This document shows, piece after piece, positions 42,109-57,656 of a stretch of DNA of 64,000 nucleotides. Location of the stretch: assembly GCA_000004985.1 (NCBI GenBank), contig GG738847.1. The stretch is one strand, 5' to 3'. The notes beneath the pieces are model-generated. The model made no database searches. It was not told the origin of the DNA and saw nothing but the letters and a program-made list of their open reading frames with translations. A program made the translations under genes and the position numbers. How positions within the stretch are numbered: position 1 is the first letter of the stretch; each line of letters starts with the position of its first letter. Origin of the DNA: Naegleria gruberi. Taxonomy: Eukaryota.

Positions 42109-43926
42109 ATGAGTAACAATAATTCTGAAGATATTGCTGCTTCAAGTTTTGCCAATAGAAAGGCTCTATTCCAAAACCTACAGAGCAATCCAAGTAATAG
42201 TAGCACAACTACCAAATCTACTACTACTCAATCTTCCACTTCCACTACTACCACTGGTAAATTACCTGCATTCAATCCGATCAATAAATCATCGACACCA
42301 AGCAACTCGTCATCTACTACCTCCAGCACAACTCCCGCCAATTCTAATACAGTAGTCACCAACAACACAAGTGGCAGTGGAGGAGGTTCGAGCCAATTTA
42401 GGGAAGCTTTGAAAGGATTGAGTGGTGCAGCTGGAGGTAATCCACTGTTTGCTGGTGGTTTTGTGAAGAGTACAACAACAACTGCAACCACCAGTTTGCC
42501 AACTTATAAACCATCAACACCGAGAGGTAATAATAATAACAGTGGTGTTGTAAATTCGGTGAGTGAAAAGAAGGAACCACCTAAATTACCACCACGTAGA
42601 GGATCTGGTATTGGATCAAACAATACAAGCACTGCTACACTCACATCAGGTGGTAGTAATAATAATAATAATAATTTGCAAACAGCAACAACAACAACAA
42701 CTAGTCAACCTCCTCCTGCTTTGCCTCCTAGAAAACTTTCACAAAAGAAAGATGAACCACCACAAATACCAATTGTTACTAAGCAACAAGTTGTCGTAGA
42801 GGAAGAACCAATTGTTGAGGAGGAAATTCATCACGAAGAAGAAGAGGAAGACGAGGAAGAAGTTATTCAAGTACGTGATAGTATTCGACATGAAAGTGAT
42901 GACGAGGATGAGTCAGACTCGGAGGAAAGTTCTACACCTTCTACACCAAGTGGAACATCATCTTCTACTACATCAATTAACAATAACAATAATTCACTTC
43001 CACAAACATTGACCATTCAGAGTACTCCACCTCCTCTACCAAAGAAAACACCAAGTCAAGAAACACCAATTGTTGATAGTTATTCCATCACATTACATAA
43101 TGCTACACAATCTTTGAACAACAACAAATCAAATCAGAATGATGACGAAGATCCAACAGCAAATCTACCAAAGGGATGGACAGCCTACTTTGACCCTGGT
43201 CGTCAGGCCCACTATTACCACAATGAATTTACTGGAAAAACAACATGGAAGAAGCCTCCATCCGATGTTATTGTCTCCTCTTCATCATCTACTTCTGCAA
43301 CAACAACAAAGGAAGAAGAACAATTAGAAGATGGATGGACAGCCTATTTCGACTCTGGTAGACAAGCCTACTACTATCATCACGAACAGACTGGTAAAAC
43401 TACATGGAAGAAACCAATCAAGCAACAACAACAACCAAAGGTTTCTCCTCGCAAGCAAACTCCACCTCCAACTAGTACTACCACTTCTGCTGTACAACAA
43501 CAACAAACTTCTCCACAGAAACAAACACCTCCAGTTGTCCCAACTAGAAAACTCTCACAAAAGAAGGATGATGTTGCTCAGGAATCAACAACGCAACAAC
43601 CTCCTTCTATTCCTCCTGTAAAACCAACTCGTCCTGCTACCAAGAGTATTATTGAGAATAATCCTCCTCCAGTTGTTGTTGTCGAGAGCAAACTTCCATC
43701 ATTACCACCTGCAAAACCAATTAGAAAGGAAACAAATTCTCCAACAACAACTCAAGGAGATTCATCTGCTCCACCTCTTCCTCAGGAAAACCACTCAACA
43801 AGGCAACACCCCCACCACAAATTCCAACAGGAAAACCATCAAGAAATCCTTTGGAATCTTCTGCAAAGAATGATCATCGTCAATCGACAGTCATTAGGGA
43901 AGATGTCATGTTGCAACCACAATTAA
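42109..43926 (+). CDS. Proline-rich protein with two WW domains. It is very probably the N-terminal part of the downstream myosin gene, separated from it by a 1-nt frameshift at about 43785-43790.
   Basis: WW domains LPKGWTAYFDPGRQAHYYHNEFTGKTTWKKP and LEDGWTAYFDSGRQAYYYHHEQTGKTTWKKP. Flanking repeats PPALPPRKLSQKKDEPPQ and PPVVPTRKLSQKKDDVAQ. The ORF ends 75 nt after the start of the myosin frame. Confidence 0.7.
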   Translation: MSNNNSEDIAASSFANRKALFQNLQSNPSNSSTTTKSTTTQSSTSTTTTGKLPAFNPINKSSTPSNSSSTTSSTTPANSNTVVTNNTSGSGGGSSQFREALKGLSGAAGGNPLFAGGFVKSTTTTATTSLPTYKPSTPRGNNNNSGVVNSVSEKKEPPKLPPRRGSGIGSNNTSTATLTSGGSNNNNNNLQTATTTTTSQPPPALPPRKLSQKKDEPPQIPIVTKQQVVVEEEPIVEEEIHHEEEEEDEEEVIQVRDSIRHESDDEDESDSEESSTPSTPSGTSSSTTSINNNNNSLPQTLTIQSTPPPLPKKTPSQETPIVDSYSITLHNATQSLNNNKSNQNDDEDPTANLPKGWTAYFDPGRQAHYYHNEFTGKTTWKKPPSDVIVSSSSSTSATTTKEEEQLEDGWTAYFDSGRQAYYYHHEQTGKTTWKKPIKQQQQPKVSPRKQTPPPTSTTTSAVQQQQTSPQKQTPPVVPTRKLSQKKDDVAQESTTQQPPSIPPVKPTRPATKSIIENNPPPVVVVESKLPSLPPAKPIRKETNSPTTTQGDSSAPPLPQENHSTRQHPHHKFQQENHQEILWNLLQRMIIVNRQSLGKMSCCNHN

Positions 43927-46900
43927 TGCCATCTCTTCCAGATGAAGTTGGATTTTCTAGAAAGTCCATCTCACGTGATCGTTATCAACCAATCAACTCT
44001 GCATATCAACAAGATTTCCGTGTTCGTAGATTGGAAGATCGTGAAATGTGTGACGATTTAACATTGCTCCTTTCACAAAGTTCAATGAAATCAAAGAAAT
44101 CCGAGCAAATGGTGGTTCCACAAAAGACTGAAATTACAGAAATTGATTTGACCAACATTTTGGCCAATCGTTATTATCAAAATGAAATTTACACATGTGT
44201 TGGTCCTGCCATTCTCTCAATCAATCCATATAAGGCTGTAAAGGGTCTATACAGTAATGAAACAAAGGCTCTCTTCCACTCTCACATTCCATACGAGTTG
44301 GCTCCTCATATTTATTCACTTGCTGAGGATGCTTATCGTACATTGTTGGAACATGCCACTGCTAACAAGCCAACCTCCACTCATGTCACAAGAGCTAGAC
44401 CTGCCATTACTGCTGTGTCATCTTCTTCTGCTCACTCTAAAAAGATGCCACCTCCTCCACCTCCTGGTAAACCAATCAATAAGGAAGCTGATTTGGATGA
44501 TGATACATTCATTATTAATGATTTCAGTATTTCAGATGGTATTGGTGTTGGACAAGCAATTATTATTCAAGGTGAATCTGGTTCTGGTAAGACACTAGCC
44601 AGCAGAATTATCATGGAATACTTGGCTGCTGTTTCAATTTCTGGATTGGAAACTCAAAGAATCAAGGATTCAATTCTTCAAAGTAATCCACTCTTGGAAA
44701 GTTTTGGTAATGCCAAGACTCTTCGTAACAACAACTCTTCTCGTTTCGGTAAATTTACCAACTTGTATTTTAACTTTAAGGGCCAACTCATGGGAGGTGA
44801 GCTCACAACCATTCTCCTCGAAAAGGCCAGAGTTGTCAAGAGAAGACTTGGAGAACGTAATTTCCATATCTTTTACCAATTGTTATCTGATGATTATATT
44901 AGAAAACAACTCAATCTTGGTTTCCCAGAAGAGTACAATTACCTCAACAATAATGTTATCAATATTAACGAAGTTGATGACAAGTCAGAATTTGAAACAA
45001 CCAAACGTGCCATGGATTTATTGGACATGAGTGTTCCAGAACAAATGGCTGTTTTCAAGATTGTTGCTGCCATTTTGCAATTGGGTAATATTACCTTCAC
45101 AGCCATTGAAGATCCTGAGGAGAGAAAGAGAAGAAACATCGCTCCTGGTGTTGAAGCTTGTGATGTTTCTAATGAAGCTTCATTGAAATTGGTTGCCAAC
45201 ACTCTCCAAATTGATGCTGAATTCTTGAGAAGATCAATGATTATCAGAGTTATCAAGACTGTTGGTTCTCCAATGCCAATTGAACAAACTCAATCAGTGG
45301 AACAAGCTGAATTCAACAGAGATACTCTCGCCAAGAATATCTATGAACGTTTGTTCTTGTGGTTGGTCAAGAGAGTCAACAGAGCATTGAGAGTTCCTGA
45401 CTATGAAGATTTTGTTGCCAAGAAGAATTCTGAAACTTACTACAATATTGGTATCTTGGATATTTATGGTTTTGAAATCTATGACAAGAATATTGGAACA
45501 GGAAAGATTGTTGATCAAGATGAAGCATCCAATCAAGGCAAACTCAAGAACGGCTTTGAACAATTGTGTATCAACTTTGTCAATGAAAAGATTCAAAGTG
45601 GTGTTCAAAGATCCATCAAGAAGGAACAAGAAGACATTCAAAAGGAAATTTATGGAGATGACTTTAAGCCAACTCTTGCCTCTACTCAAGAGAGAAACAA
45701 GAGATTCGACTCTGATGCTGCTATTCAAATGATTGCTGGCAAGCCAATCAGTGTCTTTTCATTGTTGGATGAAGAATCCATGTTCCCTAATGGTAATGAT
45801 GTTAACTATGTTCAAAAGATGAAGACCAACATCAAACATCCATACTTTAAGATTCCAAGAATTGCAGAACCAACAGAATTTGAATTGGAACACTTTGCAG
45901 CTCTCGTCAAGTATAACACTGCAGATGGATGGGTTGACAAAAATCGTGACACTTTACTCGCTGAAATGCTCTACACTATGCAAAATACAAAGGACCACTT
46001 GCTTATGGCTCTCTTCCCTAAGAATGAACAAGCTAATGATGTTCTCTCTAAAAAGCCAGCCAATGCAGGAACCAAACTTCAACAAACAACTGCTGAAAAG
46101 TTCTTGAGAGATGTCAGCAAGTTGATGAATCAATTGAGTTCATGCAGCTTGAAACATCACCACATTAGATGTATCATTCCAAACTATGAAGGAAGAGCTG
46201 ATGATTTCCAAAAGGACGTTGTTAATCACCAAGTTAGATATTTGGGTATTTTAGACACTGTCCTCTCGAGAAAAGCCGATGATTTGGGATCCAATGTGAC
46301 TGGTTACAGCATTAAGATTCCGTACGATACCTTCCTTGAAAGATACAAGCTTCTCTGTCCTGAAACATTCCCATATTGGGAAACTTTCATTACCAACAAG
46401 TATGGTCCTGTTGAGGAATTCACTATTGAACACAAGAAGGAAGCAGTCCATCAAATTTTGAGCCAAGAACATATTGGTATGACCAATCCACAAGATTTCT
46501 TCTTGGGTAGAGGTAATGTCTTGTTGGCCTCTCCAGTTCAACTCTTCCAATTGGATGAAATGATCAGAGAACAAAAACATGAAATGGCTAGAAAGATTCA
46601 AAACTCCTTCAGAAGATACAGAAAGAAGAGAGCTGGAAAGATGGAAGAAATGATGAAGAAGGCTATCAAGACAACTGAACCAACCAAGCAAAAGGAAGCT
46701 CCTGAAGAAATCAGAATTAGACATGACGGTTTCAGAACATCCAACTTTGGTGAAACAAAGAAACGTGTCTTGATCACTGGTAGTGACAGAAGAAATATTT
46801 TCCTCTTGGATACTACAAGCTCATCTTCAGAGTTTGAACAATTGAGAAAGATTGCCATTAGAGATATCAAGAAGATTTACATTTCACCATACTCTGATAA

Positions 46901-49526
46901 TTACATGATTTTCAAGTTGGACATGGATGAAGGTGATGAATTGGTAGAACTAGATAACAAGTGGGAATTTTTGGAAGAATTTAACAAGCTTATTGAATCA
47001 ACTGCCTCTAACTTTAAGGGTGAACATGTTCCAAGAGTTGAAGTTACCAAGGACATTAGTATCCTCAATCATCAAAAGGACAAGAACACTGGTACTCAAA
47101 ATTTATTGGTCAGATTTATTCCATCTGCCTACAATACCAAGAAGACTGTTACCACTGAATGCTATGCTGATGAATTTGATAATAGACTCTTCATTGTCAA
47201 CACCTTCACTCAAGCTGATATTTACAATCAAAGAAAGTTGAGAAGAAAGGCCTCACTCTATGCCAAGCAAGATCAAAACAGAGATTACTTGAGAATGCAA
47301 AACAGTGAATTGATGCAACTCTTAAAGAAGGATTATGATGACTCCAAAGTTCTATTCTCTGGTGTCGTTTCCAAGTATAACAAGAGATTCAAGAAGCAAG
47401 ACAGAATTTTCATGGTCACCGATAAGGCCATTTATAATATTGATCCAAGTGGTGGTTACCTCATCAATAGACGTGTTCCAATTGGCCAAGTAACCTCTGT
47501 CACTGTCTCACCTTACACTGATAACTTCTTTGTTGTTGATCATCCAGATCAAGATATTTTGAGTGAAAGTGCCAAGAAGACTGAAATTTTGGAATCCATT
47601 TTGGAAAGCTTCCAAAATGCTACCAATCAATTGTTACCGGTCAAGGTCACTACCAACTATTACATTAACTTGGCCAAGAAGAATACCAAGCGTGTCGCTA
47701 TTTCATGGATTATTGAACCAGAAAATCAAACACAATTCTCAGTTTCTACACTTGTTCCAAATACTGCTGGTGGAGCTGATGTTCATGTTGTTTCTGAAGT
47801 TGATAACGATAATGACAAGTCAATGAATGATTTGGCTGTTAGACAATCCTTCCAACGTAGATCAGTTCGTGGTAAGATGGTTAAGAATGGTGATATGGAT
47901 GAGGTTGATTTGAATGACGTCTTTGGTGGTTTGAAGGTTCGTAGAAAGGACTCTCTCCTCGTCTGGTTCCAAGGTGATTATTTGAACTTTAAGGACAATC
48001 CAAAATTCATCGAAATGGTCAAGAAGCACGATCCAGAATGGAATGGACAAGTTCTCTTCTCTAACCTAATGACTAAAGTCAATAAGAGATTCAGAACTCA
48101 ACCTAGAAAGGTTGTAGTTACACCAAATTACATTTACACTCTCGATGATGAAAAGTTACACTTTAACAGAATTACTCCAATCAAGGATTTGAGTGGTATT
48201 TCTCTCAGTACTATGAGAGATGCCTTCTTTGTTGTCCACTGCCCAACTGATCACGATTTATTTGCATCTTGTAAGAAGAAGACTGAATTAGTTTCTGTTA
48301 TTTGTGATGCCTTCAAAGATAAGACTGGTATGGATCTCCCAGTTCACGTAGAAGATAAATTCGTCTACAAACCAAGTACAGATGTTAAAGGTGTTAAAAC
48401 AATTGAATTTAGACATGATCCAACCACCAAGGTTCCAATCCTTACTCCAACCAAGTTGGGTTGTCTCATTCAAGTTAACAATTCTGATCCTGAAAAGGTT
48501 AAACAAAACTTACCAACTGCCAAACAACAAAAACCAGCTGCAACTCCACAACTCAAGTTATATGAAGGTTCTGATGAAAGAGGTATTCAAGATAAGATGG
48601 ATTCCATCTATACAGGAAGAAAGGGACGTAATAGAAGATCTCTCCTTCGTGAATATCTTGGTGACTATTTGAGATTGGAAGGTACACAAAGAATGAAGAA
48701 GGTTTTCGATAGAAATGGTGATACTGAATTAATCTTCTCTGGACAAGTTCTCAAATATAACAAGAACTTTAAGAAGCAACATCGTTTATTGGTTGTAACA
48801 GACAAGAATGTTTACAATATTGATGAACAAGAATTCAAGATTAAGAGAAAGATTCCACTTGAAGAAATTACAGGTGTCTCTGTTTCTCCATTCGACGACA
48901 ATGTATTTGTTATGCACTGTCCAACTAGTGGTGACTATTTGTTGGAAGATGAAAAGAAGACTGAAATTATTTCTGCTCTCCAAAATGCAAGACTCAGACA
49001 CTTGAAACAACCATTGAAGATTAATGTTGATGACCAATTTAACTTTGCTCCAAACTCTTCATCTACCATGCCAGTTACTTTCATTAGTGATGATCACTGC
49101 AAGGATACTTGGGCTGAGAATAGAGCTAATGCATTGGTTGTTCACGTAAAGAGACAAGAACCTGGTGTAGTATTGGAAGCTGCCTATCTCTATTTGAATG
49201 AAGAATCTAAACCAATTGAAGTTAAATCAACACCAATTCTTATCAAATTGAAGAAGAGATGGACCTACAAGTTGCAAATTCGTTTCTATGTCAATGAATA
49301 CTTGGCAGGATGTGAATTCCACGAAAAGATTGATACTGTGTCTTCGAGACTTGAATTTGTATCCAAAGTTGTTGAACTGGAACCAAAAGAAGAACGTTAT
49401 GTTATTACCCTTCCTGAAAGAAAGGTAATTTATTCATTGCTTTCCAAAACCAGAGTCAAGTGCAAGCTAGTTGATCCAAGTGGTAAAGTTCTCATGGCTG
49501 TTCGTTTTGTTTATGATATTCAATAA
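43851..49526 (+). CDS. Unconventional myosin heavy chain: motor domain, an IQ motif and three tandem myosin-I-type TH1 (tail homology 1) domains. The reading frame is continuous upstream to 43725 and merges with the WW-domain ORF if one A is added to the A-run near 43787.
   Basis: P-loop GESGSGKTLASRII, switch I NNNSSRFGKF, switch II LDIYGFE, IQ ARKIQNSFRRYRKKRAG. Three TH1 repeats: ...FSGVVSKYNKRFKKQDRIFMVTDKAIYNIDP...VSPYTDNFFVVDHP, ...FSNLMTKVNKRFRTQPRKVVVTPNYIYTLDD...AFFVVHCP, ...FSGQVLKYNKNFKKQHRLLVVTDKNVYNIDE...VSPFDDNVFVMHCP. Confidence 0.85.
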   Translation: MESSAKNDHRQSTVIREDVMLQPQLMPSLPDEVGFSRKSISRDRYQPINSAYQQDFRVRRLEDREMCDDLTLLLSQSSMKSKKSEQMVVPQKTEITEIDLTNILANRYYQNEIYTCVGPAILSINPYKAVKGLYSNETKALFHSHIPYELAPHIYSLAEDAYRTLLEHATANKPTSTHVTRARPAITAVSSSSAHSKKMPPPPPPGKPINKEADLDDDTFIINDFSISDGIGVGQAIIIQGESGSGKTLASRIIMEYLAAVSISGLETQRIKDSILQSNPLLESFGNAKTLRNNNSSRFGKFTNLYFNFKGQLMGGELTTILLEKARVVKRRLGERNFHIFYQLLSDDYIRKQLNLGFPEEYNYLNNNVININEVDDKSEFETTKRAMDLLDMSVPEQMAVFKIVAAILQLGNITFTAIEDPEERKRRNIAPGVEACDVSNEASLKLVANTLQIDAEFLRRSMIIRVIKTVGSPMPIEQTQSVEQAEFNRDTLAKNIYERLFLWLVKRVNRALRVPDYEDFVAKKNSETYYNIGILDIYGFEIYDKNIGTGKIVDQDEASNQGKLKNGFEQLCINFVNEKIQSGVQRSIKKEQEDIQKEIYGDDFKPTLASTQERNKRFDSDAAIQMIAGKPISVFSLLDEESMFPNGNDVNYVQKMKTNIKHPYFKIPRIAEPTEFELEHFAALVKYNTADGWVDKNRDTLLAEMLYTMQNTKDHLLMALFPKNEQANDVLSKKPANAGTKLQQTTAEKFLRDVSKLMNQLSSCSLKHHHIRCIIPNYEGRADDFQKDVVNHQVRYLGILDTVLSRKADDLGSNVTGYSIKIPYDTFLERYKLLCPETFPYWETFITNKYGPVEEFTIEHKKEAVHQILSQEHIGMTNPQDFFLGRGNVLLASPVQLFQLDEMIREQKHEMARKIQNSFRRYRKKRAGKMEEMMKKAIKTTEPTKQKEAPEEIRIRHDGFRTSNFGETKKRVLITGSDRRNIFLLDTTSSSSEFEQLRKIAIRDIKKIYISPYSDNYMIFKLDMDEGDELVELDNKWEFLEEFNKLIESTASNFKGEHVPRVEVTKDISILNHQKDKNTGTQNLLVRFIPSAYNTKKTVTTECYADEFDNRLFIVNTFTQADIYNQRKLRRKASLYAKQDQNRDYLRMQNSELMQLLKKDYDDSKVLFSGVVSKYNKRFKKQDRIFMVTDKAIYNIDPSGGYLINRRVPIGQVTSVTVSPYTDNFFVVDHPDQDILSESAKKTEILESILESFQNATNQLLPVKVTTNYYINLAKKNTKRVAISWIIEPENQTQFSVSTLVPNTAGGADVHVVSEVDNDNDKSMNDLAVRQSFQRRSVRGKMVKNGDMDEVDLNDVFGGLKVRRKDSLLVWFQGDYLNFKDNPKFIEMVKKHDPEWNGQVLFSNLMTKVNKRFRTQPRKVVVTPNYIYTLDDEKLHFNRITPIKDLSGISLSTMRDAFFVVHCPTDHDLFASCKKKTELVSVICDAFKDKTGMDLPVHVEDKFVYKPSTDVKGVKTIEFRHDPTTKVPILTPTKLGCLIQVNNSDPEKVKQNLPTAKQQKPAATPQLKLYEGSDERGIQDKMDSIYTGRKGRNRRSLLREYLGDYLRLEGTQRMKKVFDRNGDTELIFSGQVLKYNKNFKKQHRLLVVTDKNVYNIDEQEFKIKRKIPLEEITGVSVSPFDDNVFVMHCPTSGDYLLEDEKKTEIISALQNARLRHLKQPLKINVDDQFNFAPNSSSTMPVTFISDDHCKDTWAENRANALVVHVKRQEPGVVLEAAYLYLNEESKPIEVKSTPILIKLKKRWTYKLQIRFYVNEYLAGCEFHEKIDTVSSRLEFVSKVVELEPKEERYVITLPERKVIYSLLSKTRVKCKLVDPSGKVLMAVRFVYDIQ

Positions 49527-50000: not shown

Positions 50001-51230
50001 TTAAAAAGACAAGTCAATCTTTTTCGAGTAAAATTGTTTGTACCACCTTCTCAACTTCATCACTGGCCCATCACCCTTCACCAAACTCGGTGTTCTCTTA
50101 TAAATCTTATTCTCCCAAACTGTGATATCATTCTGCCACTGAGCTACCCAATTTCCCACAACATACCAAACTAATAGTCGAGGAATTTTCTTCTCTGCAT
50201 ACGCAACAAAGCCAACATCCAGATTTGTTTTGCTCTTTGGAGAATGTGTATGGAATAGATAGATTCTGCCAAAACTTCCATCAAATCTGAAAAGTGCAAT
50301 TCCTGCAGGACCAAATAATTCAATTCGAGCATTTACGGTCGTGGAGGTGAGTTTCTTACCGAAAATTTCGAGACATGCCTTGTTAGTAAAGTAGGCAATA
50401 TGAGGATCTGAATCTGAGAGTTTAAATTCTGCTTGATGTATAATTTGGACGAAAGGAACCTGAATTGAACGACCAAATATTGATCTAGGTCCACTCCATG
50501 GCAAAACCATTTGGCCATGCAAGGGTTGGAAATGTTGAAAATCTGCCGAGTTCTCAGCAAAATCTTGAATATTCATTCTAATATCTTCATATGAATAATT
50601 CCCAAAATGGTAAAATTTGTCCATGTCCAAATCTTGTGGATTCAACAATGGATACTGAGGTGGTAAACCTTCCTTCTCTGAATGGAACCACACCAAAATC
50701 ATACCATACTTCTCTTCACAATACCACGATCGAGTGTGAGCATTCTTTGGAATTGTTTCATTACAATTTTCTGAATGTTGACATGAGCTCTTGTCACAAT
50801 TATTTGGAATTTTGACACATTGACCATCTCTATCAAATTCCCATAAATGAAATGGACATTGAATGTTATTTCCAATAACCTTACCTTCCACTCCTAAATT
50901 ACTTCCCAAATGTGGACAATAAGCATCTAAAACTCCGACAGAACCATCAAATCCTCGAAACACAACCATGTCCTCGCCAAAGTAGTGGACAAGTTTGGAG
51001 CTACCTTTTGATAACTCATTTGAGAAACAAATTCTGAACCAACCGTTTGGAAACTGATCAATAAACGTACTTTCTCTAAATTTAGATGATGCATTTCTAT
51101 TCGATTCTGCTGAATGTTTTTGATCTTTCGTTTTGAAATCATACCACTTGTTGGCTATCAGGACTGCCAATAGTACAAGATTGAGAAGTAAACTAACTGC
51201 AATAAGCGTTTCAGTTTCAAAACTAAACAT
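50001..51230 (-). CDS. Rieske [2Fe-2S] non-haem iron oxygenase of the Neverland/DAF-36 (cholesterol 7-desaturase) family, with an N-terminal membrane anchor.
   Basis: Rieske motif CPHLGSNLGVEGKVIGNNIQCPFHLWEF. Mononuclear iron motif ENSADFQHFQPLH (compare Neverland ENAADIAHLAHLH). PNGWFRICFSNELSKG... aligns with Nvd PNGWFALLESRELKVG. N-terminal TM LIAVSLLLNLVLLAVLIA. Confidence 0.75.
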   Translation of the reverse strand: MFSFETETLIAVSLLLNLVLLAVLIANKWYDFKTKDQKHSAESNRNASSKFRESTFIDQFPNGWFRICFSNELSKGSSKLVHYFGEDMVVFRGFDGSVGVLDAYCPHLGSNLGVEGKVIGNNIQCPFHLWEFDRDGQCVKIPNNCDKSSCQHSENCNETIPKNAHTRSWYCEEKYGMILVWFHSEKEGLPPQYPLLNPQDLDMDKFYHFGNYSYEDIRMNIQDFAENSADFQHFQPLHGQMVLPWSGPRSIFGRSIQVPFVQIIHQAEFKLSDSDPHIAYFTNKACLEIFGKKLTSTTVNARIELFGPAGIALFRFDGSFGRIYLFHTHSPKSKTNLDVGFVAYAEKKIPRLLVWYVVGNWVAQWQNDITVWENKIYKRTPSLVKGDGPVMKLRRWYKQFYSKKIDLSF

Positions 51231-51878
51231 TTTTTTTAACTTTCTCAAATTGACTAGACGAAACTGATTGTACTCACGTGTTATTGAAGTGAAAATAGAG
51301 AAAGGATGCATTTAAATCATCTCTTTAGTCAATCGGAAGTGAGGAGGAAATCCTCAAACCCTATACACCCTCATTTGTCCATTCTCTAAAATTAAACCGC
51401 CAACAAGATCCTCGCTCAAATAAATTGGCCAATCAGCACAATCATTAGGAAGTCCGAATAATTTTGGAGGTAAAACTAACAATTAAAAACCTTATGCAAG
51501 CGAATCTCTGATACAAAATGTCCTTAATGAACCACATGCGTGTATTATATAAGGCACCAGCACAATTTCGCTACAAAAATTGCCACACCCTTAAATGAAA
51601 CTGTCTTTATAAAAGTATAGTGCACTGCCTTATTACTGTATAACTTCCTAAATCGTTCCTTGAATGATCCAGGAACAAATTGGAATGCGTGCCACTTTTT
51701 CTGAATTGTTCCAATGTTGTAGTTGTTTTAAAAAACATTAAAAAAACAGTGCAACGCCCAAACACCTCCAAATCTCCATCACAAAGACAATTGTTTGTTC
51801 TGTGTGTGTGAATCTCTTTTCTCAAAACCTCTATTCTCTGTTTTTTATACAAGAACAAGAATAAATACTCTTTATCAA

Positions 51879-52721: not shown

Positions 52722-53179
52722 TAAATCAAAATCCAAAAACAACAAATAAATTATTTTTCTCCGTAAGATATAATTAAGGTGTTTGGTTAGTTCGTTCCAT
52801 AATAATTCGATAGTCGCAGGAGATAATAAATAAGGTACCTTGGTGAATTATCTCTTCTCAACAATGAATAAGAAGTGAAAAGTGTTAAATATATTGATTC
52901 TTGGTTCCTTAAATCCAAACTTGGTATTGTAAATTTACAAAATACGATACGAATAAACGTGGCAGGTAGAGTGGAATATTTATTTCAGGAAAAGGCAACC
53001 AATCACAATCCTCCAACCTTTTTTAGTTCGAGAAAAATCCTTTTTGCAGCCAACTAAAAAAATTCTGTTGGCGAGAATTGCAATTAACAGAAACAACAAA
53101 AAAAACTTGTTCACAAGGTGCTCGGCTACACTTCAACAATTTTCATCATCTTTTGAAGTGGATACCTAAAATACAATAC

Positions 53180-56100
53180 ATGACAGCAGCTGTCAATAAT
53201 CGAAAGAAAATGAAGTGTTCAAATAAGAGACGACAACAGTTGACCACCACCATCATGATGTTCATGGTGATGGTGATTGGAATTATTTTACTCACCAAAA
53301 ATGTTCAAAGTTTATTACCACGATATAAAATTGAAGTGCTATCCGGAAATCCATACATGTCCACAGCACTCTATGATGGAATTATGGCCACAGATGCAAT
53401 TCTCAACCTTCCAAGAAACGTACTCCTCTACAATGATGAATTGTACATATCCGATACCTTTAATCACATGATTAGAAAGGTTTCGAAAAATGGAACACTC
53501 ACCACATTGGTAGGAGTTGGTGCTGCTGGTTCAAATGATGATGATGGTTTGCTTGGAATTGATACTCAACTAAACAATCCGAATGGTTTATCCATTTCTC
53601 CAAATGGTGAATTATTGTTTATTGCTGATACTGATAACAAATTGATTCGAGTTTTGAATATGAAAACAATGATTTGTAATGTATTTAAAATGTTTACATC
53701 GAGTGGGGTGTTAGATACCTTGACGAAACCAGTTGGTGTTTCCATTACAAGTAATTGGAATATTTACATAACCGATGACAAGTATGTGAAAAAGGTTAAT
53801 TATTATACAAGAGTAGTTACAATTATTGCAGGAGGTATGTTATATTGTTATTGTTTTTAATACGAAACTATTGAAATTTGTTTTTTTTTGTTCTGATTGA
53901 CTAAAAAGGTGGAAGTGGTAGTTATAAAGATAATGTCGTTCCAACAACCATTTCAATCACAAGTCCTAAACTCATTCATACCATTCCTTACACTCCTGAT
54001 TCTACTCTTGTAGTTTTTACTGATGCCACAACTGCTAAATTTATTATAGATACAGAAAGTTTACAATCAACCACAAAAACAGGACTTGTAGGAGGGTAAG
54101 TTTTAATCATCAATTTATTGAGTACTAGAGTAATATATTTTGAAAAATAGTTCAAATATTCCAGCAATTTTTCCATTTTCCACCACAACATTTTACTATT
54201 CTTTGGGAAATGGGATTTTTAACTTGGAAAGTGGAATTAATACTCCTAAATCTGCAACTACTGGTGGTGATGCTGGAAAGTATAGTGTAACTAATATGGC
54301 GTATTCTTATTTTAACACTTCTTATGGATTACATGGAAATAGTTCAGTGATTTATATTGCAGATTCGGCTAATTATTGTATTAGAAAGTATGATATTGCG
54401 AATAATTCTGTATCAACTGTTGCAGGTTTCAAATATCAACCTTCTTTTGAAGGAGTTTATGCTTTATCTGTTTATGCAGATTTGAAAATTCAAAAGTTAA
54501 CCGTGACCTACAAGGATGAAATTATTTATCTTGACACTAACAACAGAGTTAGAATGATTACAGCCAATGGAAGAATCAAAACACTCATTGGATCTGAGTA
54601 TACATCCAAATATCCAGTTTGTGTTTCAACATCTATTGCTTTGGAATGTAGGGCAACTAACGCGATTGATATTATGAGCGTTGGAGATTCTCTAATTCTC
54701 TCAACTTTAAAATTATTCAGTTATGATTTGGCAAGCATTTCAGGAACATCTACCATTACCCAACAAGGTACTGAACTAGTAGGTACTTTCTCTCTAAGAG
54801 CAATGAATGGCTCATCAGGTGCTGTCGTATATTTCCTAAATAATGCCAATCAATTGTTAAAAAAATCTTTAACTGGTTTGGAAACAGTTGTGAAAGGATC
54901 ATTATCTGCATCAGATTTCAATATTGTAAATATTGATACTGATTTCGCTAGAATTTGCTATATTGAGAGTGGAATTATCACTTGCTTTAATGAGACTGAT
55001 TTAAGTTCAATTGTTCTCCCAATGCCATCTGGAGAAACCAAGTTCACAAGCGTTGCACTCACTAGTACTACTGTCTATGCATCAACAAGTAATAGAATCT
55101 ATGCCTATTCAGTTTCTGATTATTCAACTGCTTACCTAATTGCAGGTTCAAAGCCAGTTAATGTGAATGGACAAACTTTTGATTATAGTGGGTACAACAG
55201 TGATTACATTTTGGCAACTAGTGCTATTTTGAGTGATATCAGTAATTTGCAAGTCTCTTCTTCTAATGGAAATATCTATTTTGTGAGTGGTGGTACTTTG
55301 ATTAGAAGAATTGCCAATGGATTTGTTTCTACAGTTGCTGGTATTTCACCTCTCCATACAGAAGGTATAACACCAATGGCAATTGCAAGAGATTCAGCTA
55401 AAAAGATCACCTATTTCATTGACAGTAATACACATGTTAAAATGATGGATGAAGCCAGTGGAATTATTAGTCCACTTACTTTACCAATTAAACCAAGTCC
55501 TGATCCACAAAATATTACATTACCATTAACATTTTTAAGAGCTCCACCAAAGAATGCAGGTCAATTATTGACTTATTCCTCCTATGATGGTTTATTATAT
55601 CTTGCAGATTATTGCAGAATTATTTCCATCAATGTTACATCTGCTTCATACAAGCTTGTAACTGGTACTGTGTGTGGAGATAGTGCTGACAATATTTTAG
55701 CAATCAATTCATTCATTCAAACACCAAGTTCCATGACAGTCGACTCTAAAACTGGAGATTTATACTTTACGTTTGGAACAAAGATTTTGAAAATTGAAAA
55801 GAAAACTGGTTTATTAACGACATTATATGGCAGTACTGGTAAAATTGGAACTGTTGTGAATGGAATAATTTCCAAAACTTCTCTCCTCACCAACATTACA
55901 AGTTTGGTCGTGTCTGATGATATTATTTACTTTGCAGATATTACTCGTAGCGTTAGACAAATAGCTCTATCAAACAGTAATTTGACAACTTTGGTTACCA
56001 TGGCTGCGGTCACTGAAAAGATGCTTTCAATTTCACTCGATAAGAATGGTGACATTTTCATTCTCGATACCTATACTTACTTAATTAGCAAGTACATTAA

Positions 56101-57656
56101 AAGTTCAGGTGGGGTCCCCAAAGAGGTAGCAGGAAAACAATTTGGTAAAGGATTCAATGGAAGATACAATGCTCAGGCAACGAATTCCAATTTGAGAAAT
56201 TTTATTTCCTCTGTCAACATTGACAATGGAATAATGTTTACTGAAATTGCAGATAAGACTGGTGGTCTCATTAGAAAAATAACAGCTCAATGTGATGGAA
56301 ATTCAACCCTGGACTCTAGTGGAGGTAGTTGTGTCTGTAATGATGGATACACTGGAGATTCTTGCAATGTATTCGTTTGTTATGGTTTAACTGCAACTAG
56401 TTCAGAAGTATGCTCAGGAAATGGATCGTGTATTGATGTGAATGTGTGTAAATGTAGGGATGGATTCGAAGGTTCCTCATGTAATATTGTTAAGGCTGCA
56501 AATGTCACAACAGGAGATTCATTGGGTGTGATTTTACCTGCTGTTCTCGTTCCAATATTGGTTATTTTGATTATTATTGTAATTATAATTGTAGTGGTAA
56601 TCATTGTGTTTGCCACAAAAAAGAAGAAGAAGAAGGATAAGGGATTGGAAGAAACCACAGATTTTGATGAAGTTCCAATGAGTGATTTGCCATCTGACAT
56701 GTCTGTCATTTTGAGTAGCAGTTTGACAAGAAGTGTTTCATCATCAACCAATGAAGAAGAAAATCTCTTTACAAGATATCAAGATATTGTCAAGATTGGA
56801 CAGGGAGCATTCGGTAGTGTTTTTAAAGTTAGAGATACCAAAGACGGAGACAAGATCAAAGCTGTTAAAGTTTTGAAATTTAATTCTGTCAGTGATTTGA
56901 ATATGATTATGAAAGAAGGTGCTCAATTAACAAACGCCAAACACAACCACATTCTCAAAGTCAATGATTATTTCATTACTAACGACAATTTACTTTGTAT
57001 TGATATGGACTATTATGAAAAGGGAGATTTGTCTCAATTTACCAAAACTGATTGTCCAGAACATATTGTAAAACAAATTCTCTATCAATTATGTGATGCT
57101 TTGAGTTATGTTCATGGAACTCTTTCCATGATTCACAGAGATATCAAGCCAACTAACATTTTTGTAAAGGAATATGATGGAACAAATGTCAGTGTCATTC
57201 TTGCTGATTTTGGTTTAGCCAAACAAGCTCAAGAATCAGCTGCAAATTCATATGCTGGTACTCCACTTTGTAAGTTTTTAATTTTCCTTTTTATTTACAA
57301 ATATTTCAATTAATTTTACAATTTTAATTTTTTTAATATTTCAATTGTTAATTAATAATATTTCAGATATGAGTCCTGAACTTGGATTAGGAGGAAAATA
57401 TTATCCAAACTCTGATACTTATTCACTAGGTGTTACAATTTATCAAATAATGACAAAGGACCTTACCACATCAATCAGTCACTTGTTGTTGAATGATCCA
57501 CAAAATGCTCAATCGAAATTGAGAGACAAGATGAAACAATCTAAACTGGGTTACTCAGATCAGCTTATTGACTTGATTATTAGAATGTTGGACAAGGACA
57601 GTTTAACTAGACCTAATGCTGCAGACATTCTTTCAGATTCGTATTTCAGAAGATAA
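53180..57656 (+). CDS. Single-pass receptor kinase: signal anchor, NHL-repeat beta-propeller-like ectodomain, EGF-like cysteine modules, a TM segment and a cytoplasmic NEK-like Ser/Thr kinase domain. Four exons: 53180-53834, 53909-54095, 54151-57269 and 57367-57656.
   Basis: NHL-like repeats (LYISDTFNHMIRKVSKNGTLTTLVG..., LLFIADTDNKLIRVLN, IYIADSANYCIRKYD...). EGF-like CVCNDGYTGDSCNVFVC...CSGNGSCIDVNVCKCRDGFEGSSCN. TM VLVPILVILIIIVIIIVVVIIVFA. Kinase YQDIVKIGQGAFGSVFKVRD...AVK...HRDIKPTNIFV...DFGLAK...GTPL|YMSPE (NEK-like GTPxYMSPE). All three introns have GTATGT/GTAAGT donors and were verified in frame. Confidence 0.75.

What the first reader, a model, noticed from the sequence alone, without database searches (positions are those of the whole stretch)
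50001..51230. Neverland/DAF-36-type Rieske sterol 7-desaturase candidate in a protist genome
The protein has both the Rieske CxH...CxxH cluster motif and the E-x3-D-x2-H-x4-H non-haem iron motif, with block-wise similarity to Neverland (PNGWF..., ENxADxxHxxxLH). It implies that this organism can 7-desaturate sterols, taken up or endogenous, the way Tetrahymena Des7 does. It may also be of interest as a small membrane-anchored Rieske oxygenase.
Basis: partly seen in the sequence, partly recalled or inferred. Interest (0 to 1): 0.5.

Follow-up and report, generated by a model that had tools for sequence, protein, structure and literature searches.

The report
Naegleria Neverland-like Rieske sterol oxygenase gene
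This is an intact, already annotated Naegleria gruberi gene for a membrane-anchored Rieske iron oxygenase, most likely the enzyme that turns cholesterol into 7-dehydrocholesterol; this idea is already published for Naegleria, though the protein belongs to a sister branch of the tested Neverland/DAF-36 enzymes.

Summary
Window 50001-51230 (-) is an intronless CDS that is 100% identical to N. gruberi XP_002682583.1 (UniProt D2V148, auto-named "cholesterol 7-desaturase"). It has an N-terminal TM anchor, a Rieske domain (CPH-x17-CPFH), a KshA_C catalytic domain, the ENSADFQHFQPLH iron motif and the third-ligand Asp.

Zhou 2018 showed by 13C labelling that N. gruberi makes 7-dehydrocholesterol from exogenous cholesterol, and listed a DAF-36-like gene. 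Herman 2021 and Darnet 2021 say the same.

What I add is phylogenetic placement. I recovered real B. mori, C. elegans, zebrafish and Xenopus Nvd and Tetrahymena DES7 sequences from a paper supplement. With these, the protein falls in a sister clade (99% NJ bootstrap; clade HMMs 486 vs 345 bits). That clade holds Naegleria, bdelloid rotifers, Physarum, other protists and Myxococcota, and none of the enzymes cited as C7-desaturases that I could place. It is still much closer to Nvd than to KshA or SdmA. Its distance from animal Nvd is about the same as that of the proven enzyme DES7.

Best reading: sterol C7(8)-desaturase, confidence about 0.65. Interest is low.

The parts
50001..51230 (-). Annotated CDS (409 aa plus stop) of N. 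gruberi XP_002682583.1 / D2V148, a Rieske non-heme iron oxygenase; intronless here
   Evidence: ORF list. 100% identity to P0001. Translation checked.
51231..51311 (-). Possible 27-aa N-terminal extension from an upstream in-frame ATG (51309-51311), with a stop codon directly upstream. An ENA gene call (P0121, 436 aa) uses it, but RefSeq does not.
   Evidence: Which ATG is used is unresolved.
51147..51209 (-). N-terminal hydrophobic helix TLIAVSLLLNLVLLAVLIANK, a predicted single-pass membrane anchor
   Evidence: Kyte-Doolittle mean up to 2.76 over 19 residues. AF2 models a long helix over residues 4-55. Heterolobosean and rotifer homologs all have an equivalent hydrophobic segment.
50799..51041 (-). 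Rieske [2Fe-2S] domain (Pfam PF00355, residues 91-171 of the 436-aa ORF)
   Evidence: E 2.8e-20; coordinates checked.
50847..50918 (-). Rieske cluster ligands C-P-H ... C-P-F-H (C105, H107, C125, H128 in 409-aa numbering)
   Evidence: Invariant in the 56-sequence alignment and at >=95% across both clades.
50754..50816 (-). Cys-rich insertion after the Rieske core (VKIPNNCDKSSCQHSENCNET). It is the only low-confidence part of the model and aligns to a gap in KshA.
   Evidence: KshA alignment gap. pLDDT 66-70 for residues about 141-160. Sequence.
50028..50693 (-). Catalytic domain, Pfam KshA_C PF19298 (residues 207-428 of the 436-aa ORF)
   Evidence: E 2.3e-19, full-length profile match 1-207/207. 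The model's best PDB matches are KshA structures.
50517..50555 (-). Mononuclear-iron motif ENSADFQHFQPLH: E226, N227, D230 (bridging Asp by analogy with KshA), and H233 and H238 (Fe ligands)
   Evidence: E, N, D, H and H are invariant.
50127..50129 (-). Asp (D368 in 409 numbering, D395 in 436 numbering) in the motif N-D-I-x-V-W-E-N-K, inferred to be the third iron ligand. It aligns with the Asp of KshA's F-E-Q-D-I/V-E-I-W.
   Evidence: KshA alignment. Invariant D368, W372 and K375. Its identity as the carboxylate ligand rests on my knowledge of KshA structures, not on a test here.

Best explanation
The gene most likely encodes a membrane-anchored, KshA-fold Rieske non-heme-iron oxygenase that acts on the sterol B ring. 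Its most probable activity is sterol C7(8)-desaturation (EC 1.14.19.21-like), converting scavenged cholesterol and related delta5 sterols into delta5,7 sterols such as 7-dehydrocholesterol. Shown here: an intact CDS; an N-terminal hydrophobic anchor; a Rieske [2Fe-2S] site (C105/H107/C125/H128); an iron site (H233/H238 plus D368) with D230 in the bridging position; a confident KshA-like fold; and a sister-group relationship to the Nvd/DAF-36/DES7 clade. Inferred by analogy with KshA and other Rieske oxygenases: electrons from NAD(P)H reach the Rieske cluster through an unidentified partner. I recall that Tetrahymena microsomal C7 desaturation depends on cytochrome b5, but I did not check this. 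The electrons then pass through the bridging Asp to the mononuclear iron of a neighbouring subunit in an alpha3 trimer. There O2 is activated and two hydrogens are removed from C7/C8, giving the double bond and two waters. The link between this gene and the cholesterol-to-7DHC flux measured in N. gruberi is an inference. It has not been demonstrated.
For: Identity to XP_002682583.1 / D2V148, which UniProt auto-names cholesterol 7-desaturase. Rieske plus KshA_C architecture. All metal ligands are conserved. AF2 gives pLDDT 93.7, with KshA as the best PDB fold match (E 7e-24). The protein scores 157-191 bits against the B. mori, C. elegans, D. rerio and X. laevis enzymes, the same range as proven Tetrahymena DES7 against those enzymes (159-180 bits). 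KshA scores only about 100 bits. The Nvd-like supergroup (this clade, the Nvd clade and DES7) separates from KshA and a short bacterial clade at 85% bootstrap. Neither homolog listing (top 120 each) returned any other Naegleria Nvd-like protein. 13C labelling shows cholesterol in N. gruberi is exogenous and 7DHC has a dual origin, which implies a C7-desaturase, and the authors list a DAF-36-like gene in both Naegleria species (PMC6136796). [quoted passage not shown] A review reaches the same conclusion (PMC8172173). The gene is conserved at about 60% identity in N. lovaniensis and an N. fowleri-like contig.
Against: The protein lies in a sister clade (W), not in the clade holding the enzymes cited as C7-desaturases that I could place: 99% NJ bootstrap and 486 vs 345 bits with clade HMMs. 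I know of no characterised member of clade W. Zhou 2018 lists a different N. gruberi accession (XP_002682415) as the DAF-36-like gene, so a second candidate gene may exist. Another heterolobosean (sp. BB2) has a true Nvd-clade protein. The Naegleria proteins carry Asn at a position that is His in >=95% of both clades, although DES7 has Gln and KshA has Asn there. Bacterial clade-W genes are not in sterol gene clusters. No reductase partner is in the window. The trees are NJ only, with one partial KshA sequence as outgroup.
Confidence: 0.65

Rival explanations
1. It is a sterol or steroid oxygenase of the Nvd-like superfamily with a different regiochemistry or reaction. Examples are hydroxylation elsewhere on the nucleus, or the 'missing' C22-desaturase that Naegleria needs for ergosterol. 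Clade W would then be a functionally distinct paralog.
For: Clade W is robustly separate from the Nvd clade and has no characterised member known to me. [quoted passage not shown] The iron-motif signature differs: ENSADxxHF in W against ENGADxxHL in Nvd. Both clades occur within the same eukaryotic supergroups, for example Naegleria against Heterolobosea BB2 and Physarum against Arcella and Gocevia, as expected for old paralogs.
Against: The characterised relatives act on adjacent B/C-ring carbons: Nvd at C7/C8 and KshA at C9 (my knowledge of these families). The only identified Tetrahymena C22-desaturase belongs to a different superfamily (PMC9485055). Naegleria demonstrably has C7-desaturase activity, and no other Nvd-like gene turned up. 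Divergence from animal Nvd is no greater than that of functional DES7.
Confidence: 0.2
2. It acts on a non-sterol hydrophobic substrate, such as an aromatic or another lipid. This has been speculated for some expanded arthropod Neverland paralogs.
For: Rieske oxygenases are catalytically versatile. A preprint raises non-sterol roles for Nvd paralog blooms. Bacterial clade-W members show no sterol-gene neighbourhood.
Against: The closest characterised families on both sides (Nvd and KshA) are steroid enzymes. The host has the matching sterol activity. There is a single copy per Naegleria species rather than a paralog bloom.
Confidence: 0.1
3. It is a KshA-type 3-ketosteroid 9-alpha-hydroxylase, or an SdmA-type sterol C4-demethylase oxygenase, acquired from bacteria.
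For: The best solved-structure matches are KshA. The top NCBIfam hit is SdmA. Myxococcota sequences sit in the same clade.
Against: KshA scores only about 100 bits and serves as the outgroup. The SdmA model scores 57 bits against a cut-off of 600 and aligns only to the Rieske half; DAF-36 itself scores 52 bits on the same model. The motif starts E-N, not KshA's D-N. The protein has a eukaryote-style N-terminal anchor. Its GC content matches the host (0.369 vs 0.344). Naegleria has ERG25-type C4 oxidases.
Confidence: 0.03

Closest known systems
Neverland / DAF-36 cholesterol 7-desaturases of animals (EC 1.14.19.21)
   Same: Rieske plus KshA_C two-domain architecture, an N-terminal hydrophobic segment, identical metal-ligand set, PNGW and E-N-x-A-D-x-x-H-x-x-x-x-H blocks, and 26-31% identity (157-191 bits). 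The host organism performs the same cholesterol-to-7DHC conversion.
   Different: The protein falls in a sister clade rather than within the family (99% bootstrap; 345 vs 486 bits with clade HMMs). The motif is ENSADFQHF rather than ENGADxxHL. There is a Cys-rich insertion after the Rieske core. Activity is untested.
Tetrahymena thermophila DES7 (TTHERM_00310640), sterol C7-desaturase
   Same: A protist Rieske/KshA_C enzyme acting on scavenged sterols. It is similarly distant from animal Nvd (159-180 bits) as the window protein is (157-191 bits). Like Naegleria, it lacks the otherwise conserved His at alignment position 220.
   Different: Only 27% identity (125 bits) to the window protein. DES7 prefers the Nvd-clade HMM (292 vs 203 bits) and joins the Nvd side in 67% of bootstraps against 7% with the window clade.
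KshA, 3-ketosteroid 9-alpha-hydroxylase oxygenase of actinobacteria (PDB 2ZYL, 4QCK, 4QDC, 4QDF)
   Same: Same fold (Foldseek E 7e-24, TM 0.65-0.74), the same ligand positions and a steroid substrate.
   Different: About 23-27% identity. It acts as the outgroup in the trees. It is soluble with no N-terminal anchor, has a D-N-x-x-D motif start and belongs to a bacterial catabolic context with the KshB reductase (KshB from my own knowledge).
Uncharacterised 'clade W' homologs (N. lovaniensis, bdelloid rotifers, Physarum, Leptophrys, Ammonia, Cymbomonas, Myxococcota MAGs)
   Same: 36-61% identity and the same motif signature ENSADxQHFxPLH. The heterolobosean and rotifer members share the single N-terminal anchor.
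   Different: Many protist members carry a 320-370 aa polytopic membrane domain instead of a single helix. None has a known function.

Membership tests
Rieske non-heme iron oxygenase, KshA-like (Pfam PF00355 + PF19298) | Rieske CxH...CxxH [2Fe-2S] ligands | tested here: met
   C105/H107/C125/H128 (409 numbering). Found by regex and invariant in the alignments.
Rieske non-heme iron oxygenase, KshA-like (Pfam PF00355 + PF19298) | Mononuclear Fe 2-His-1-carboxylate site plus bridging Asp ((D/E)x3Dx2Hx4H and a C-terminal Asp) | tested here: met
   E226..D230..H233..H238 and D368 are present and invariant. D368 aligns with the Asp of KshA's EQD motif. The ligand role is inferred from KshA.
Rieske non-heme iron oxygenase, KshA-like (Pfam PF00355 + PF19298) | Both Pfam domains above gathering threshold, and a KshA-like fold | tested here: met
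   72.4 and 70.7 bits against cut-offs of 20.3 and 23.3. AF2 pLDDT 93.7, with KshA as the top PDB match.
Rieske non-heme iron oxygenase, KshA-like (Pfam PF00355 + PF19298) | Alpha3 homotrimer with inter-subunit electron transfer | not tested
   Only a monomer was modelled.
Nvd/DAF-36/DES7 cholesterol 7-desaturase (EC 1.14.19.21) | Phylogenetic placement inside the clade containing the characterised enzymes | tested here: not met
   Sister clade: 99% NJ bootstrap against Nvd, DES7 and the outgroups. Clade HMMs give 486 bits (W) against 345 bits (Nvd). NJ only; a maximum-likelihood confirmation is desirable.
Nvd/DAF-36/DES7 cholesterol 7-desaturase (EC 1.14.19.21) | Closer to Nvd than to any other characterised Rieske oxygenase family | tested here: met
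   157-191 bits to Nvd/DAF-36 against about 100 bits to KshA and 57 bits to the SdmA model. The W, Nvd and DES7 group separates from KshA at 85%.
Nvd/DAF-36/DES7 cholesterol 7-desaturase (EC 1.14.19.21) | N-terminal membrane anchor (microsomal enzyme) | tested here: met
   A hydrophobic helix at residues 8-28 of the 409-aa protein. It is also present in the nearest homologs, and B. mori NVD and DAF-36 start with a comparable hydrophobic stretch.
Nvd/DAF-36/DES7 cholesterol 7-desaturase (EC 1.14.19.21) | Catalyses cholesterol to 7-dehydrocholesterol | not testable with these tools
   The organism-level activity is published (PMC6136796). This protein has not been assayed.
KshA 3-ketosteroid 9-alpha-hydroxylase | Orthology to KshA, with a KshB-type reductase partner | tested here: not met
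   KshA is the distant outgroup. No reductase is among the window ORFs scanned against Pfam. The rest of the genome could not be searched.
SdmA 4-methylsterol monooxygenase (NCBIfam NF052579) | Score at or above the curated cut-off of 600 bits | tested here: not met
   57.4 bits, aligned to the Rieske half only. Clade relatives and DAF-36 score 45-71 bits.

The most novel reading that the evidence does not exclude
Clade W may be an old, functionally distinct paralog of Neverland. It comprises Naegleria, bdelloid rotifers, Physarum, Rhizaria, a prasinophyte and Myxococcota, and many members are fused to an unannotated polytopic membrane domain. Under this reading its reaction or substrate differs from C7(8)-desaturation of cholesterol. 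The true Naegleria C7-desaturase would then be another gene, possibly the XP_002682415 listed by Zhou et al.
Probability: 0.22. Interest if true: 0.45.

Novelty: already known. Interest (0 to 1): 0.2.

Why it matters
Rieske C7-desaturases are absent from mammals, so the Naegleria enzyme has been proposed as a drug target against the brain-eating N. fowleri. It would also explain how Naegleria channels scavenged cholesterol into delta5,7 sterols. The only new point here is that the Naegleria gene represents an uncharacterised sister clade of Neverland. Assaying it would assign a function to a widespread protist, rotifer and myxobacterial subfamily. As a genome-scan finding it is an ordinary, already annotated gene.

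Tried and rejected
- Genomic context of Myxococcota homologs: no sterol or redox-partner cluster, so uninformative.
- Window-wide Pfam scan for a reductase, ferredoxin or cytochrome b5 partner: none found.
- A search with AT-rich relatives P0140/P0186/P0228, hoping they were ciliate DES7: only 10 hits and no ciliate names.
- The listing of cluster members on representative sequences: mostly unnamed.
- The afdb50 fold library was unavailable.
- The Najle 2013 paper is not held.
- A full-text search for the accessions found nothing, so the XP_002682415 vs XP_002682583 mismatch stays unresolved.
- The exact look-up of the 409-aa protein in the contig index failed.
- Synteny with the N. lovaniensis and N. 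fowleri-like loci: only the gene itself matches, so positional orthology can be neither confirmed nor excluded.
- SdmA identity for clade W was rejected.
- L-INS-i realignment timed out, so MAFFT --auto was used.
- Tandem paralogs in the window: none by tblastn.

Full report
**What is there**

The minus strand of window 50001-51311 carries one uninterrupted ORF of 436 codons. A stop codon lies directly upstream of its first ATG. It is exactly the 409-aa RefSeq/GenBank model XP_002682583.1 / EFC49839.1 of Naegleria gruberi (UniProt D2V148) at 100% identity. NCBI names it "Rieske non-heme iron oxygenase family protein". UniRef names it "cholesterol 7-desaturase".

The window is therefore N. gruberi nuclear DNA, with about 34% GC and mostly intronless genes. 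The neighbours are unrelated eukaryotic genes:
- a 1891-aa myosin with several TH1 domains
- a filamin-repeat protein
- a WW-domain protein
- an NHL/EGF receptor kinase
- a CDF transporter
- an ATG2-like protein

The gene's GC content (0.369) matches the window (0.344). tblastn finds no second copy in the window.

**Anatomy**

Pfam finds a Rieske [2Fe-2S] domain (E 2.8e-20) followed by a full-length KshA_C catalytic domain (E 2.3e-19). Residue numbers below use the 409-aa protein.
- An invariant Asp (D368, in NDIxVWENK) aligns with the Asp of KshA's EQDxEIW motif. I take it to be the carboxylate iron ligand from my knowledge of KshA structures.
- Residues 8-28 form a strongly hydrophobic helix. 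The nearest homologs all have an equivalent helix.
- An AlphaFold2 model built from a 56-sequence alignment is confident (mean pLDDT 93.7, pTM 0.87). Only a Cys-rich insertion after the Rieske core is poorly defined.
- The model's best solved-structure matches are the KshA steroid 9-alpha-hydroxylases (E about 7e-24), followed by SxtT/GxtA and dicamba monooxygenase. The sequence search of the PDB gives the same ranking.

**What is already published**

- Zhou et al. 2018 (PMC6136796) fed N. gruberi U-13C-glucose. Cholesterol stayed unlabelled, so it is exogenous. 7-Dehydrocholesterol had intermediate labelling. They inferred conversion of scavenged cholesterol by a C7-desaturase and stated that both Naegleria genomes encode a DAF-36-like protein.
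- Herman et al. 2021 (PMC8296547) searched with Tetrahymena DES7 "as there is an ortholog in N. gruberi". [quoted passage not shown]
- A review (PMC8172173) says Naegleria "most probably" uses a Rieske-type C7-desaturase.

One loose end remains. Zhou's S1 table lists XP_002682415 for N. gruberi, not XP_002682583. I could not retrieve that accession. The 60% identity they quote equals what I find between the window protein and its N. lovaniensis and N. fowleri-like counterparts (61% and 60%). That is compatible with a table error but does not prove one.

**Family placement**

- A word-indexed search returned Naegleria, bdelloid rotifers (48-50% identity), Physarum, several protist transcriptomes, Cymbomonas and Myxococcota MAGs (about 40%). 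It returned no canonical animal Nvd.
- An exhaustive HMMER search of 1.84 billion cluster representatives gave 402 relatives at E <= 1e-30.
- Among these I identified Caenorhabditis DAF-36 (P0244; motif positions match the published C122/H124/C143/H146 and E230) and a mollusc enzyme.
- A search seeded with a Heterolobosea sp. BB2 protein brought in named Drosophila, Bombyx, Danaus, Caenorhabditis, Capsaspora and Diplonema sequences, but no Naegleria.
- Supplementary Table 1 of PMC7425431 prints codon-optimised ORFs of B. mori NVD, C. elegans DAF-36, D. rerio NVD, X. laevis NVD and Tetrahymena TTHERM_00310640 (DES7). I translated these and added them.
- I rooted the trees with the KshA1 (4QDF_B) segments aligned.

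The neighbour-joining trees used 208-213 sequences and 323-324 columns, with 100 bootstraps:

| Grouping tested | Bootstrap support |
|---|---|
| Window clade W apart from the Nvd clade, DES7, KshA and a short bacterial clade | 98-99% |
| Nvd clade alone monophyletic, before the five references were added | 88% |
| W + Nvd + DES7 apart from KshA and the short bacterial clade | 85% |
| DES7 with the Nvd side | 67% |
| DES7 with clade W | 7% |
| DES7 outside both clades | 10% |
| Naegleria with bdelloid rotifers | 100% |

Clade W holds Naegleria, rotifers, Physarum, Ammonia, Leptophrys, Cymbomonas and Myxococcota.

Clade HMMs built without Naegleria and rotifers agree with the trees:

| Protein | Clade W HMM (bits) | Nvd clade HMM (bits) |
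|---|---|---|
| Window protein | 486 | 345 |
| Animal enzymes | 278-346 | 447-517 |
| Tetrahymena DES7 | 203 | 292 |

All of these C7-desaturases therefore sit on the Nvd side, and the window protein sits in the sister clade.

The distances are nonetheless modest. The window protein scores 157-191 bits (26-31% identity) against the four animal enzymes. Proven DES7 scores 159-180 bits against them. SdmA is excluded for the window protein and for members of both clades, at 45-71 bits against a 600-bit cut-off.

**Function and mechanism**

The best-supported reading is a microsomal-type, single-pass-anchored Rieske oxygenase that desaturates the sterol B ring at C7(8).
- Shown: the cofactor sites, the fold, the anchor and the relationship to Nvd.
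- From the literature: the organism carries out the reaction.
- Inferred: that this gene is responsible, that it works as an alpha3 trimer with Rieske-to-iron transfer through D230, and that electrons come from an NAD(P)H-dependent partner.

I recall that the Tetrahymena microsomal activity depends on cytochrome b5, but I did not check this. No partner is encoded nearby.

Several points argue against full confidence:
- The protein lies in the sister clade.
- Clade W has no characterised member known to me.
- The published accession does not match.
- Heterolobosea BB2 has a true Nvd-clade gene.
- Naegleria has Asn at a position that is His in >=95% of both clades. DES7 has Gln and KshA has Asn there, so this is evidently tolerated.
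- The phylogeny is NJ only, with one partial outgroup.

I put the C7-desaturase assignment at about 0.65. I give about 0.2 to a different sterol oxidation (Naegleria's C22-desaturase is still unidentified). I give about 0.1 to a non-sterol substrate, and very little to a KshA- or SdmA-type role.

**Verdict**

Novelty: already known. The sister-clade placement, the rotifer link and the fused membrane domain in relatives are minor additions. Interest is low (0.2). The most novel reading not excluded is that clade W is a functionally distinct Neverland paralog (probability about 0.22).

Noticed in passing
window 43851-49526 (+): An intronless 1891-aa myosin: a motor domain followed by four separate Myosin_TH1 stretches (total E 3e-111) and a PH-like domain. 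A multi-TH1 tail is an unusual architecture for a class-I-like myosin.
   Followed up: no
homologs P0022, P0028, P0053, P0058, P0068, P0153, P0164, P0178, P0190 (not in the window): Many protist relatives are 650-805 aa long. A conserved 320-370 aa polytopic domain (3-7 predicted TM helices) with no Pfam match is fused in front of the Rieske/KshA_C part. The extensions are homologous to each other (BLAST E down to 1e-123, and 1e-15 to 1e-20 between distant pairs). Naegleria has only a single helix, and no convincing homolog of this domain is in the window.
   Followed up: partly
homologs P0007-P0014 (bdelloid rotifers Didymodactylos, Rotaria, Adineta): Bdelloid rotifer proteins are the closest named relatives of the Naegleria enzyme outside the genus (48-50% identity; sister group at 100% NJ bootstrap). 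They are not in the animal Nvd clade, which suggests horizontal transfer between a protist lineage and bdelloids. Most (P0008-P0014) have a longer Rieske loop, CxH-x19-CxxH.
   Followed up: partly
literature vs window 50001-51230: Zhou et al. 2018 (S1 table) give XP_002682415 as the N. gruberi 'DAF-36-like' 7-desaturase, whereas the window gene is XP_002682583.1. This is either a second gene or a table error, and could not be resolved with the tools.
   Followed up: partly
P0205 (Heterolobosea sp. BB2, EukProt): Another heterolobosean encodes a genuine Nvd-clade protein (motif ENGADVGHLGYLH; 38-42% identical to insect Nvd). No such protein was seen for Naegleria, so both paralog types occur within Heterolobosea.
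   Followed up: partly
L007 10001-11394 (N. lovaniensis PYSW02000002.1) and L005 4319-5738 (SRR29240419 contig): The N. lovaniensis and N. fowleri-like counterparts have an intron near the 3' end, with the last 16 codons lying about 100 bp downstream. Their neighbours are different (Ras GTPases, an ankyrin protein, ribosomal protein L27). The N. gruberi gene is intronless and not syntenic with them.
   Followed up: partly
window 50754-50816 (-): A Cys-rich insertion (NNCDKSSCQHSENCNET) lies between the Rieske core and the catalytic domain. It is absent from KshA and is the only low-pLDDT region of the model. Tetrahymena DES7 has a longer, unrelated insertion at the same place.
   Followed up: no
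window 54140-57313 (+) and 53078-53860 (+): A receptor-like protein with NHL repeats, teneurin-like EGF domains and a C-terminal protein kinase. It is preceded by a separate NHL-repeat ORF, which may be one gene split by an intron.
   Followed up: no
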